Positions 1,802-9,910 of a stretch of DNA of 64,000 nt are shown one piece after another. The stretch spans positions 434,001 to 498,000 of the forward strand of contig NW_027590224.1 in NCBI RefSeq assembly GCF_964213995.1, in the 5' to 3' direction. Origin of the DNA: Mustelus asterias. Taxonomy: Eukaryota. The notes beneath the pieces were generated by a model. The model worked only from the letters and a program-made list of their open reading frames with translations. It searched no databases and had not been told where the DNA came from. Every line of letters starts with the position of its first letter. The first letter of the stretch is position 1. A program made the translations under genes and the position numbers.

Positions 1802-2457
1802 CCAAAGAGGCTTAGCAAAGGGTACAAGTTGATTTTGCAGGACCGCTTGAAGGATGATGTTTCTAATTATAATGAATGCTCATTCAAAATGGCCAGAAGT
1901 TGCCTTCATGAAGTCAACTTCACCAGAGAAGATGATTGTAGGACTGGGAGAAATCTTTAGCAGATTAAATTTCCCTGAGGAATTGGTGAGTGATGACAGA
2001 TCAAAGTTTGTCTCTCAAGAATTTGAAAGCTTCTTGGAATACAATATATTCTGCAGCATACCATCTTGCTACGAATGGACTAGCAGAAGATTTGTGCAAA
2101 TGATGAAACATGTTAAAGGCAACCAGGGAATAAGTTTCTTTGACCAAATATTTGAATCAACTCCTGCTCATGTATATACTGCGCACTCAGCGAGAAAAGT
2201 TTCTCCAGTGGTAAAGATGATGAAATGACAATTACATTCGATTTATTAAAATGACCAAAGACAAAATAAATCATCCACAGAAAGCAACAAGGTCAAACTG
2301 AACAGCAGGAAAGCAAAGCAAAACACTGTCTTCCGCCGGGGGCAAGAAATTCTGACCAGAAACTATACAAGAGAAAAATGGGTCCTGCCGTAATCATAGC
2401 ACAGGCTGGACCTGTCTCCTATACTGTCTCGACCTGAGACAATGTCCTTTGGAGGAG

Positions 2458-2753
2458 TGTGGTGAACCATCGTTGGTTCCCACCAGGTAGTACTGAGCCA
2501 GGGTCTGGCCAGTACTATGAGTCTGTATATATGTTGCTGTTGGGGTTAGGGTTGGGTTGTTATACCTGTATTATAGTTATTATGGGACATCCCAGTCGGG
2601 CTCCGCCTCCTGGGAGAGGTATAATGGTCACTGCTCTGTCTGGGACCCTTCAGTCTGGGATCGTGTATTATATATGGTAGCTCTATTGTAGTAGTCAATA
2701 AAAGCCTTTATTTCCTCGAGCATCTCTAGCCTCGTGAGTTATATCGCGCATCA
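2458..2753 (+). repeat. 5' LTR (296 bp)
   Basis: TGTGGTGAACC...GCATCA, with TATA-like motif and AATAAA; direct repeat of 5476-5806. Confidence 0.95.
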
Positions 2754-2813
2754 ATTTTATTGACTACTAATTGAACTCTCGTCGCTAAAAAAAAAGAAAA
2801 CTATACAGAGAGC

Positions 2814-2913
2814 ATGGAGCAAATGCTTAAACCCGAATGTCTTACGCTGGACCCACGTGCGGCGGGCGCCTCCAACACCTTCAACCACTGGTTGAAATGT
2901 TTTCAGGATTACC
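2814..2913 (+). pseudogene. gag: Truncated gag N-terminus (MEQMLKPECLTLDP...FNHWLKCFQDY) fused out of frame to pol
   Basis: ATG 60 nt after the LTR, Gypsy gag-like start, abrupt junction to the pre-RT sequence near 2913. Confidence 0.6.
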
Positions 2914-2937
2914 ACACCCTCCCTATTCCAGAATCTT

Positions 2938-5408
2938 GTGCCAGGCTGCAAGCCCATCGCAACGAAGAGTAGGCGTTACAGCGCTGAGGATCAGATCTTC
3001 ATTCGATCTGAGGTTCAGCGGCTCCTCAAGGAAGGGATCATACAACCTAGCGCTAGTCCTTGGAGAGCGCAGGTCGTGGTGGTCAAGAGTGGGAACAAAC
3101 CCCGGATGGTCATTGACTATAGTCAGACCATTAACAGATACACGCAGCTGGATGCGTATCCCCTCCCGCGCATTTCTGACATGGTCAACCAGATTGCGCA
3201 GTACCGGGTGTTCTCCACCATCGACCTAAAGTCTGCCTACCACCAGCTCCCCATTCGCCCAGAGGACCGACAATACACAGCTTTTGAGGCGGATGGTCGC
3301 TTGTACCATTTTCTAAGGGTTCCTTTTGGTGTCACCAATGGGGTCTCGGTCTTCCAGCGTGCTATGGACCGAATGGTGGACCATAACGGACTGCGGGCTA
3401 CCTTCCCGTACCTGGATAACGTCACCATCTGCGGCCATGACCAGCAGGACCATGATACCAACCTTCTTAGTTTCCTACGCACTGCATCTCACCTGAATCT
3501 GACCTACAACAGGGAGAAGTGTGTATTTCGCACGCGCCGCCTAGCAATCCTCGGATACGTGGTGGAAAACGGGGTCATTGGCCCTGATCCAGACCGTATG
3601 CATCCCCCCCTCGAACTTCCCCTGCTCACTAGCGCAAAAGCACTGAGAAGATGCTTAGGCTTCTTCTCTTACTACGCACAGTGGGTTCCCAATTACGCGG
3701 ACAAAGCCCGTCCGCTCATCAAGTCTACCTCTTTTCCCCTAGCAACAGAGGCTCGTTTGGCCTTTGAAAAACTAAAAGCCGACATTGCGAAAGCCAAGAT
3801 GCACGCTATCGATGAGTCCATCCCCTTCCAGGTGGAGAGCGATGCATCTGATTTCGCCCTGGCCGCCACACTTAACCAGGCGGGCAGGCCCGTCGCCTTT
3901 TTTTCTTGCACCCTCCAAGGCCCCGAAATTCGACATTCAGCGGTGGAAAAGGAGGCCCAGGCCATTGTGGAGGCCATCCGGCATTGGCGCCATTACTTGG
4001 CGGGAAAACGGTTCACCCTGATCACGGTCCAGCGGTCCGTGGCGTTCATGTTCAATAATACGTTACGGGGCAAGATCAAGAACGATAAGATCTTGAGGTG
4101 GAGAATCGAACTCTCCACCTATAATTACGACATCATGTATCGTCCAGGGAAACTCAGTGAGCCCTCGGATGCCCTGTCGCGTGGAACATGCGCCAGTATG
4201 CAGGAGAATCGTTTGCAGACTCTCCACAATGACCTCTGCCATCCAGGGGTCACTCGGCTCTACCACTTCGTAAAAGCCCGGAACCTACCCTACTCGGTGG
4301 AGGATGTCAGGTCCATAACTAGAAGCTGCCGGGTATGCGCGGAATGCAAACCGCACTTTTACCGATCTGACAGGGCACAACTCGTAAAGGCCACTCGTCC
4401 CTTCGAAAGACTGAGTGTGGACTTTAAGGGCCCCCCTTCCCTCGACAGATCGGAATGTGTACTTCCTCAATATCATTGAGTACTCACGATTCCCTTTTGT
4501 CATTCCCTGCTCTGATACGACCGCTGCCACGGTTATCAAGGCATTTTGTGGTCTTTTCACCCTGTTCGGGTACCACTGTTACATCCACAGTGATAGGGGC
4601 TCGTCGTTCATGAGCGATGACTTGAGGCAATACCTGCTCTCATATGGAATTGCCTCTAGTAGAACCATGAGCTACAACCCTAGGGGTAACGGACAGGTGG
4701 AACGTGAGAATGCTACAGTCTGGAAGGCTGTCTTACTGGCGTTGAAGTCAAAAAGTCTTCCAGTCTCCCATTGGCAAGAGGTGCTCCCTGATGCGCTCCA
4801 CTCCATATGCTCACTCCTGTGTACGGCAACCAACGCTACTCCCTATGAGAGACTGTTTTCATTCCCTCGGAAGTCTTCCTCTGGGACCTCATTATCGTCT
4901 TGGTTGACGTACTCAGGACCTGTCCTCCTGCGGCGACATGTTAGGGCCCGCAAGTCAGACCCTTTGGTTGAACAGGTCCATCTCCTCCACGCCAACCCTC
5001 AGTATGCCTATGTGGCATACCCTGATGGGCGAGAGGACATGGTCTCGATTCGAGACCTGGCGCCAGCAGGGGGCTTGGAAACCCCTGTCGCCCCCATACC
5101 TCCTGTTAGAGACCCCCCAACTATTGTTTCCCCTCCTGACACAGCGCGGGCAGCATCGGGACCATCACTTAACCCTTTTACTCCCGTGTACAGCTTGCCT
5201 GAGTCCAGGAGATGGTCGCCACTTCAAGGCGTGTCCGAGCTCAGTGGATTGTCACCACCTCAGGGTCAACCGGCCCGTGAGACATTGGAGGAGCCGTTGG
5301 ACACCACCTTGGGGAGAACGCCACCCCGAGTGCCTACTCCAGTGTCATCGTCAGTGTTGAGGAGGTCACAACGACGGTGCGGTCCCCCTGACCGTCTGAA
5401 CTTATATA
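2938..5408 (+). pseudogene. pol: Gypsy pol (RT, RNase H, integrase), frameshifted near 4430
   Basis: RT motifs (RMVIDYS, DLKSAYHQ, PFGVTNG, YLDN); RNase H (DASD, EKEA); HHCC (LHNDLCH..CRVC); DDE (VDFKGP, HSDRG, QVERE). Split between ORFs 2938-4479 and 4415-5602. Confidence 0.9.
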
Positions 5409-5475
5409 CTGATGACCAATTGTTCTGTGTTTTTTTTTGTACCCCACCGGCCTTTGTCTTCAAAGGAGGGGTGAA

Positions 5476-5806
5476 TGTGGTGAACCATCGTTGGTTCCCA
5501 CCAGGTAGTACTGAGCCAGGGTCTGGCCAGTACTATGAGTCTGTATATATGTTGCTGTTGGGGTTAGGGTTGGGTTGTTATACATGTTACTGTTGGGGTT
5601 AGGGTTGGGCTGTTCTACCTGTATTATAGTTATTATGGTACATCCCAGTCGGGCTCCGGCTCCTGGGAGAGGTATAAAGGTCACTGCTCTGTCTGGGACC
5701 CTTCAGTCTGGGATCGTGTACTATATATGGTAGCTCTATTGTAGTCGTCAATAAAAGCCTTTATTTCCTCGAGCATCTCTAGCCTCGTGAGTTATATCGC
5801 GCATCA
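5476..5806 (+). repeat. 3' LTR (331 bp, with an extra 35-bp tandem unit)
   Basis: Direct repeat of the 5' LTR, preceded by the PPT. Confidence 0.95.
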
Positions 5807-6519
5807 AGGAGGCACGCGGATAAACTGTTGGCGGGGAGAACCAATCCATCAGGGGAAGAACCTGCAGTGAGTATGAATCCAACTGTGCCGAGTTACAACC
5901 AGAACCTTCCCAAAAATCTGACACTGACAGAACCGACTGGGGAAGACAGCATCTCAATTGCAGAACAAGCACCGAGTTAACCTCTAGTCACAACGTTGAC
6001 TCCAGTCAAACCAACTATTGATGACATTCATATCTAGCCGAAAATGCCAGAGGTTACAGTAATTGTCAAAAAGCAGGTGCCTGAGATTCATCGGCAACCA
6101 TTCAGAGAACAATGACCTCAATCATCTGACAAATTGATAGTTCATGTTTAATGTGTTTGAGATGTTTGATTTAAAAGGGGAAATGTTGTATATTTATAGT
6201 ATTTACAGCTGCTATTTCTAAGCAGCATTGAAGCCAAACTGAGTACTTTAAGATTATGCATGCATGACGCAATTGGAGGTGATGTTATAGACCGTGAGCG
6301 CGGGTAACTGCAGAGTAAGAGCACAGCCTGTAGTGAACACCTCCTTAATAAAGCTCTTTAATTTGTTGAACCTCATGGTTTCCTACCGTCAATTCTTCAA
6401 ACACCACACTAACTCCCCCAGCCTCTCTCACGTTCCCATTCCCATCTCACTAGCCTGGGAACCTTGAACCGCTCACCTCCACATCTGGAAACCTTCATTC
6501 ACTCTATTACCTCTGCTTG

Positions 6520-9368: not shown

Positions 9369-9826
9369 CCCTGAGCTGCGGCACTCCCTCAGTACTGACC
9401 CTCTGACAGTGCGGCACTCCCTCAGTACTGACCCTCTGACAGTGCGGCACTCCCTCAGTACTGACCCACTGACAGTGCGGCACTCCCTCAGTACTGACCC
9501 TCTGACAGTGCTGCACTCCCTCAGTACTGACCCTCTGACAGTGCGGCACTCCCTCAGTACTGACCCTCTGACGGTGCGGCACTCCCTCAGTACTGACCTT
9601 CTGACAGTGCGGCACTCCCTCAGTACTGACCCTCTGACAGTGCGGCACTCCCTCAGTACTGACCCTCTGACGGTGCGGCACTCCCTCAGTGCTGACCCTC
9701 TGACAGTGCAGCACTCCCTCAGTACTGGCCCTCTGACAGTGCAGCACTCCCTCAGTACTGACCCTCTGACAGTGCAGCACTTCCTCGGCACCGACCCTCT
9801 GACAATGCAGCACTCTCTCTGTACTG
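9369..9826 (-). repeat. 33-bp minisatellite, ~14 copies, same monomer as the 30-63.5 kb array but opposite orientation
   Basis: (cactccctcagtactgaccctctgacagtgcgg)n. Confidence 0.95.
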
Positions 9827-9910
9827 ATACTCGGATGTCAGTCTGAATTTTGTGCTCAGCTCCCTGGAGTGACTCTGTGAACCCAGGACATTCAGACTCT
9901 GAACCACAGG
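9827..9910 (-). mobile_element. 5' head of a DeuSINE (SacSINE1/AmnSINE-like) running directly into the minisatellite
   Basis: Minus strand: gggttcacagagtcactccagggagctgagcacaaaattcagactgac..cagtacagagagagtgctgcattgtc, resembling the DeuSINE B-box/Deu-domain entry (recalled consensus). Confidence 0.65.

What the first reader, a model, noticed from the sequence alone, without database searches (positions are those of the whole stretch)
2689..2769. Gypsy element with no tRNA PBS but a perfect 15-nt self-complement covering its own AATAAA
Seen: directly after the 5' LTR the sequence is a-TTTTATTGACTACTA (2755-2769), not a TGG-type tRNA primer site. It is the exact reverse complement of TAGTAGTCAATAAAA (2689-2703) in the LTR, which includes the poly(A) signal. 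Known: Tf1-type Gypsy elements self-prime by pairing the PBS with the 5' end of their own RNA, and retroviruses hide the 5' poly(A) signal in hairpins. Inference: this hairpin can form only at the 5' LTR, so it could both self-prime reverse transcription and mask premature polyadenylation.
Basis: partly seen in the sequence, partly recalled or inferred. Interest (0 to 1): 0.7.

Follow-up and report, generated by a model that had tools for sequence, protein, structure and literature searches.

The report
Self-priming Gypsy using its poly(A) signal
This jumping gene and dozens of related families in sharks and other animals have no tRNA docking site; the spot where DNA copying starts pairs instead with the element's own poly(A)-signal stretch, so they likely prime copying with their own RNA and may hide a premature stop signal in the same fold.

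Summary
Confirmed. 2755-2769 is the exact reverse complement of LTR 2689-2703, one base after the LTR end; 187 genomic copies keep it. A sister subfamily has a compensated change. Across 11 families in this genome, 7 of 13 pairs change on both sides. In metagenome relatives, 29 of 34 scannable loci show the pairing just before gag. TGG-primed Gypsy families in the same genome do not. Tf1-like self-priming is the best reading (0.8, inferred, no RNA data). The element is not a Tf1/sushi chromovirus: no chromodomain, and an RT indel shared with a tRNA-primed, Mag-type family. Added here: a conserved GC box-TATA-Inr predicts the start 35-50 nt upstream of the paired arm, so the primer would be internal, unlike Tf1. 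Poly(A) masking is plausible but untested: the arm always ends in TAAA(A), with a canonical hexamer in 25 of 32 representatives. This scan has reported the same clade before on other DNA; my paper searches found no description.

The parts
2453..2457 (+). 5' target-site duplication AGGAG (repeated at 5807-5811)
2458..2753 (+). 5' LTR, TG...CA
2603..2608 (+). GC-box-like CCGCCT, 17-21 nt before the TATA in all 11 shark families compared (a variant in 2)
2620..2626 (+). Conserved TATA box (GTATAA in 11 of 11 shark families)
2649..2655 (+). Initiator-like TTCAGTC; predicted transcription start A2652, 32 nt after the TATA (30-33 in 11 of 11 families); not mapped experimentally
   Evidence: spacing rule recalled
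2689..2703 (+). Candidate self-primer arm in R; predicted primer 3' end at A2703
2697..2702 (+). AATAAA poly(A) hexamer inside the arm's 3' end
   Evidence: sequence
2704..2749 (+). Predicted second stem directly after the arm: G2704-C2749, C2705-G2748, C2706-G2746; these three pairs never vary in 11 shark families, so they carry no covariation evidence
2755..2769 (+). Primer-binding site, complementary to the element's own LTR arm, one base after the LTR end
2814..2913 (+). Start of gag; about 1.39 kb of gag-protease present in other copies is missing near 2910
2896..4479 (+). Open frame with RT, RNase H and integrase zinc finger
4415..5602 (+). Open frame (different reading frame) with integrase core; no chromodomain
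5461..5475 (+). Polypurine tract before the 3' LTR
5476..5806 (+). 3' LTR; its copy of the arm (5742-5756) has one A-to-C difference; 35-nt duplication relative to the 5' LTR

Best explanation
This is a deleted copy of a non-chromovirus Gypsy retrotransposon whose primer-binding site pairs with a 13-17 nt stretch of its own LTR ending in the poly(A) signal, and it likely primes reverse transcription with its own RNA instead of a tRNA. Inferred steps: transcription starts near A2652; 2689-2703 pairs with 2755-2769; a second stem starting at G2704 stacks on that duplex; the RNA is cut after A2703, probably by the element's RNase H as in Tf1; the new 3' end is extended over 2754-2704; and this short cDNA jumps to the RNA's 3' end using the 10-30 nt of R between the hexamer and the poly(A) site. 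The hexamer sits at the arm's 3' end probably because that is the one place where the arm can both cover it at the 5' LTR and still leave R sequence for the jump. Masking is a likely second role (about 0.45).
For: Own genome: 187 loci with the perfect pair. Sister subfamily with both arms changed: 48 of the 52 loci listed are fully compensated, 357 strand matches in all. Eleven families in this genome: 7 of 13 pairs change on both sides, 99% of cells pair, 0 of 500 shuffles reach the covariation score, and slid registers pair 36-45%. Metagenome and MAG contigs: 38 of 87 loci had a gag start and 34 had enough upstream DNA; 30 of 34 had a perfect inverted repeat of 10 nt or more, 29 of them ending 0-37 nt before gag. 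L073 and L074 differ by a compensated change within one family. A PBS rarely pairs with another family's LTR (11 nt or more in 18 of 992 cross tests, listed pairs being look-alike arms; none in 3200 shuffles). Six control Gypsy loci with TGG-type PBS in the same genome reach only 5 nt. The predicted fold pairs the arm with probability 0.86-0.99 in 32 of 32 representatives. Precedent: Tf1 self-primer, PBS and flanking duplexes (PMC10085805, passages); RT cleaves the self-primer (PMC5341516, passages).
Against: No RNA start, poly(A) site, cleavage product or cDNA intermediate was observed. The predicted start is 35-50 nt upstream of the arm, whereas the Tf1 primer is the RNA's 5' end. One-sided mismatches exist: 12 copies with a changed PBS and 3 with a changed 5' LTR, none compensated at that position. 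The 32 representatives were chosen for pairing of 11 nt or more (2 of 34 tried failed that filter), and many metagenome loci come from a few hosts, so they are not independent. For masking: 7 of 32 have GTTAAA, TTTAAA or GATAAA in the arm, and 3 of 32 have a canonical hexamer outside it.
Confidence: 0.8

Rival explanations
1. The pairing exists mainly to hide the 5' poly(A) signal, as the HIV-1 polyA hairpin does, and priming uses something else.
For: The arm ends in TAAA(A) in 32 of 32 and holds AATAAA or ATTAAA in 25 of 32. The hexamer is predicted buried at the 5' LTR and more open at the 3' LTR. HIV precedent: PMC2645353 (abstract).
Against: The complement starts one base after the LTR end in the families examined, exactly where a primer must end. 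No other primer site was seen. Masking alone would not need that fixed register.
Confidence: 0.08
2. A host tRNA, tRNA half or other small RNA primes at this site, and the self-complement is secondary.
For: Half-tRNA priming exists in Copia lineages (PMC6317226, passages). The genome's tRNA set could not be searched in full.
Against: No TGG. The PBS differs at 7 of 13 positions among 11 families of one genome and follows each family's LTR. The 13-mer outside its usual LTR/PBS context occurs 182 times against 175 for the reversed control, and none of 30 such loci held an ARAGORN tRNA (30 of 182 checked).
Confidence: 0.04
3. The 3' R copy of the arm, or the arm of a second packaged RNA, is the primer (long-range or trans self-priming) rather than the local 5' hairpin.
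For: The same 15-mer is present in both R copies. The arm ends in A residues beside the poly(A) region. The predicted start is not at the arm.
Against: The local hairpin is stable and would form first during transcription (inference). Cutting the 3' R would destroy the strand-transfer landing site (inference).
Confidence: 0.07
4. Chance inverted repeat, or a local duplication artefact in one copy.
For: A single-locus fold is only z -2.28, and another perfect 15-nt inverted pair lies in the first 20 kb.
Against: Fixed position and changed-but-paired sequence across families and hosts.
Confidence: 0.01

Closest known systems
Tf1/Tf2 (Schizosaccharomyces pombe), Tj1 and the Tf1/sushi group of chromoviruses
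   Same: No tRNA PBS; PBS next to the 5' LTR end and complementary to LTR sequence; extra duplexes beside it (PMC10085805, PMC4600332, PMC5341516, passages).
   Different: No chromodomain or SH3_Tf2-1 domain; two CCHC knuckles; RT has a one-residue insertion that Ty3 lacks. The arm is 13-17 nt (Tf1's 11 nt is recalled), carries the poly(A) hexamer, and is predicted to lie 35-50 nt inside the RNA in sharks.
Mag-lineage Gypsy elements (tRNA-primed)
   Same: RT motif DYSQTINRYTQLD matches DFKQTINRYSQLD of a family in this genome whose PBS is TGGCGACGAGG, the complement of the tRNA-Ser(GCU) end listed in PMC13524379 supplement 3. Calling that family and the double-CCHC gag 'Mag-type' is recalled.
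   Different: RT identity is only 33-36%, the PBS is self-complementary rather than tRNA-complementary, and the catalytic motif is mostly YLDN. No reference Mag sequence was on hand for a tree.
Predicted self-priming Copia lineages (TAR, Houba, Osr-1)
   Same: Show that self-priming has been predicted outside Tf1/sushi (PMC6317226, passages).
   Different: Different superfamily and plant hosts.
HIV-1 polyA hairpin
   Same: AAUAAA held in a stem at the 5' end represses polyadenylation (PMC2645353, abstract).
   Different: The HIV hairpin forms in both R copies and is not the primer; here the partner strand lies outside the LTR and is the PBS.

Membership tests
Ty3/Gypsy LTR retrotransposon | Paired TG...CA LTRs, target-site duplication, polypurine tract | tested here: met
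Ty3/Gypsy LTR retrotransposon | PR-RT-RNase H-IN order | tested here: met
   Pfam on natural copy P0001; window copy lacks gag-PR
Tf1/sushi group | PBS complementary to own LTR, no tRNA match | tested here: met
   tRNA test partial
Tf1/sushi group | Chromodomain at the integrase C-terminus | tested here: not met
   0 of 35 proteins hit Chromo or SH3_Tf2-1 at E 0.01; not among precomputed domains of the listed homologs
Tf1/sushi group | RT tree placement among chromoviruses | not testable with these tools
   No Tf1 or sushi sequence available; DUF4939 search of own genome blank and uninformative; RT indel differs from Ty3
Tf1/sushi group | Self-primer is the 5' end of the RNA | tested here: inconclusive
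   Promoter motifs predict a start 35-50 nt upstream of the arm in 11 of 11 shark families; no RNA ends mapped
Tf1/sushi group | Flanking duplexes ('pretzel') | tested here: inconclusive
   The base after the arm is paired in the predicted fold in 26 of 32 representatives; the three shark pairs are invariant; a duplex 3' of the PBS is not consistent
Tf1/sushi group | RNase H cleavage releases the primer | not testable with these tools
   needs biochemistry
Mag lineage | RT-RNase H tree placement with Mag, SURL, CFG1 | not testable with these tools
   No reference sequences; supplement searches of PMC6238403, PMC8556966, PMC2577118 for the clade's motifs were blank, with some files not searched
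Mag lineage | RT insertion DY/F-x-x-T-I-N and two CCHC knuckles (features recalled) | tested here: met
   two CCHC motifs in 83 of 121 proteins, many of the rest truncated
Mag lineage | tRNA-type (TGG) PBS | tested here: not met

The most novel reading that the evidence does not exclude
A large, animal-wide, Mag-related Gypsy clade invented self-priming independently of Tf1/sushi by turning its own poly(A) signal into the primer's 3' end. One fold both silences the 5' poly(A) site and yields an internal primer cut from a capped leader of about 50 nt, a geometry not described for Tf1.
Probability: 0.4. Interest if true: 0.72.

Novelty: new variant of a known kind. Interest (0 to 1): 0.5.

Why it matters
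Self-priming is proven in fission-yeast Tf1 and assigned mainly to its chromovirus relatives. A separate lineage spread through sharks, rays, cnidarians, tunicates, echinoderms, nematodes and a crustacean (host names; pairing seen in this shark and in unnamed contigs) would mean tRNA-free priming arose again in Gypsy elements and is common in animals. Such elements would escape control by tRNA fragments (inference) and be missed by PBS-dependent annotation. Many natural arm/PBS pairs in one genome give ready-made matched and mismatched controls for asking how a retroelement solves priming and 5' poly(A) suppression together.

Tried and rejected
RNA evidence: no RNA holder listed with raw reads; contigs from X1-X3 and X5 cannot show starts or ends. 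X1 showed unphased changes at paired positions, which I did not count. IMG/VR scan found no relative. Rfam on 2400-2900 gave only a chance-level hit. Idea that PBS-variant copies record primer copying from one parent: the 10 variant copies kept are scattered among 30 others, with mean distances 0.045 / 0.042 / 0.044 (7 of 47 dropped for deletions or insertions), so they look like recurrent changes in a short TAG repeat and are uninformative. An early idea of a fixed 11-nt AG-start primer was dropped: pairing runs to 13 nt in 31 of 32 and shark arms often start otherwise. The TATATAT at 2669 was rejected as the promoter: absent from most families, unlike the TATA at 2620. Outgroup hunting: SH3_Tf2-1 hits were decayed unrelated elements and no chromovirus was recovered. 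ESM Atlas gave generic RT clusters. Clade name not found; Cigr-1 and CsRN1 were considered from memory or from the LTR start motif and left untested. Levin 1995 and Lin and Levin 1998 were not held.

Full report
Observation. They belong to a Gypsy element with LTRs at 2458-2753 and 5476-5806, an AGGAG target duplication and a polypurine tract at 5461-5475. RT, RNase H and integrase follow in Gypsy order. The copy is broken: about 1.39 kb of gag-protease found in other copies is missing near 2910, and pol lies in two frames. Longer copies are about 4.7 kb. The closest named proteins come from sharks and rays, so the 3.7-Gb host is probably a cartilaginous fish. On its own the hairpin is only moderately better than shuffles (z -2.28).

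Own family. 187 loci carry the perfect pair at the same spacing. At one position 12 copies have a changed PBS and 3 a changed 5' LTR, and none has both; 24 LTRs carry that variant against 877 with the common form. The PBS-variant copies are scattered on a tree (40 of 47 kept), so they say nothing about mechanism. A sister subfamily changes both arms together: 48 of 52 listed loci are compensated, out of 357 strand matches.

Other families in this genome. A protein search recovered further families at 70-88% identity. In 11 families aligned, 13 register-fixed pairs are formed in 99% of cells, 7 change on both sides, 0 of 500 shuffles reach the covariation score, and slid registers give 36-45% (related sequences can beat such shuffles, and the families were picked with the pairing in view). 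One further family, L199, has a break at position 11 and failed my filter. Two unrelated Gypsy groups with TGG-type PBS reach only 5 nt of self-complement in 6 loci tested.

Other hosts. Of 87 metagenome and MAG loci, 38 had a gag start and 34 had enough upstream DNA. 30 held a perfect inverted repeat of 10 nt or more, 29 of them ending within 37 nt of gag; 4 had none, of which L123 shows the pairing once the right LTR is used. Several loci share a host or family, so these are not 29 independent cases. For 32 representatives, the first three pairs are always A-T and pairing holds to position 13 in 31, to 14 in 24 and to 15 in 19 (pairing to 11 is by selection). Cross-family tests reach 11 nt in 18 of 992, and 3200 shuffles never do.

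tRNA rival. No PBS examined starts with TGG. The 13-mer followed by A or C occurs at background frequency (182 against 175), and 30 of those loci held no tRNA gene. A full tRNA search was not possible. The stronger argument is that the PBS follows each family's LTR.

Where the RNA starts. No raw RNA reads were available. In all 11 shark families a GC-rich box, a GTATAA box and an initiator-like motif 30-33 nt later are conserved. By the usual TATA spacing (recalled) this predicts a start at A2652, 35-50 nt upstream of the arm across families. The TATATAT at 2669 is not conserved. So the primer is predicted to be an internal stretch: one cut after A2703 would free a 3' end on a capped piece of about 50 nt. 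In Tf1 the primer is the RNA's 5' end (PMC10085805, PMC4600332, passages). The invertebrate LTRs show no such conserved TATA, so this may not hold clade-wide.

Second stem. The base after the arm is paired in the predicted fold in 26 of 32 representatives, either with U5 near the LTR end or in a local hairpin. This recalls the flanking duplexes of Tf1, but the three shark pairs never vary, so it is a prediction only.

Poly(A) masking. The arm ends in TAAA or TAAAA in 32 of 32, with AATAAA or ATTAAA in 25 (11 of 11 shark, 14 of 21 others); the rest have GTTAAA (5), TTTAAA or GATAAA, and 3 have a canonical hexamer outside the arm. Folding buries the hexamer at the 5' LTR (unpaired 0.00-0.11) and leaves it more open at 3' LTRs (0.20-0.93 in the 13 with both ends). 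HIV-1 represses its 5' poly(A) site with a hairpin (PMC2645353, abstract). Cap-proximal sites are often weak anyway (recalled), so masking may be a by-product. A design argument favours it (inference): the arm must end before the poly(A) cut to leave R for strand transfer, and must reach the hexamer to cover it, which puts its end exactly where it is seen.

Kinship. None of 35 proteins has a chromodomain or SH3_Tf2-1 hit. Gag has two CCHC knuckles. RT carries a one-residue insertion (DYSQTIN) shared with a tRNA-Ser-primed family of this genome and absent from Ty3 and two other local Gypsy groups. That pattern I recall as Mag-type. No reference sequences were available for a tree, so the clade is unnamed and independent origin is likely but untested. 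It works like Tf1; it is not filed as Tf1/sushi.

Literature. Nine searches found self-priming described for Tf1/sushi, Tcn1 and some plant Copia (PMC10085805, PMC6317226, PMC4600332, PMC5341516, PMC11042837, PMC3601003, PMC6934838; passages) and a non-canonical PBS in Skipper (PMC5006619, passages), but nothing for a non-chromovirus animal Gypsy clade. Surveys of mollusc and annelid clades do not discuss PBS type (PMC6238403, PMC8556966, PMC8220671; passages). PMC12471100 (passages) covers tRNA-primed Saci2. PMC13524379 (passages and part 1 of supplement 3) lists several elements with no tRNA PBS without explaining them. Subscription journals and Repbase are not covered, and unread supplement files could name the clade. 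This scan's earlier notes describe what appears to be the same clade in at least six other windows; they are unchecked AI notes and I count them as no support.

Verdict. The feature is real and clade-wide. Self-priming 0.8; poly(A) masking as a selected second role about 0.45; new variant of a known mechanism; interest 0.5.

Noticed in passing
window 30085-63510, and 9377-9827 on the other strand: A 33-bp satellite of about 1000 units with higher-order repeats fills half of the window; its long open frames are artefacts of the repeat.
   Followed up: no
L082, L094, L137, L151, 12-26 nt before the arm: Four invertebrate LTRs have a polypyrimidine-YAG stretch like a splice acceptor just before the paired arm; splicing or trans-splicing could set the RNA's 5' end near the primer.
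   Followed up: partly
L138, 5' LTR end: The stretch between arm and PBS appears inverted relative to the 3' LTR, as if flipped by recombination between the two complementary arms.
   Followed up: no
L086 and L151: Only 23 nt separate the hexamer from the LTR end, so U5 is nearly absent and any downstream poly(A) element would lie outside the LTR.
   Followed up: no
P0001 and homologs: The RT catalytic motif is mostly YLDN-type rather than YLDD (about 90 of 121 proteins), yet young copies with intact frames and 99-100% identical LTRs exist.
   Followed up: partly
L146-L152; P0013, P0039: Several bacterial MAGs and one isolate assembly hold contigs of this animal retrotransposon clade, most likely host contamination.
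   Followed up: no
L238-L247, L256, L257: A young, abundant Gypsy family with a single frame of about 1995 aa and a TGG-type PBS four T's after the LTR.
   Followed up: partly
window 5476-5806 against 2458-2753; L058, L213, L215, L216: The two LTRs of one copy often differ inside the short TTG-TAG-TAG repeat at the arm's 5' end, suggesting a slippage hot spot.
   Followed up: partly
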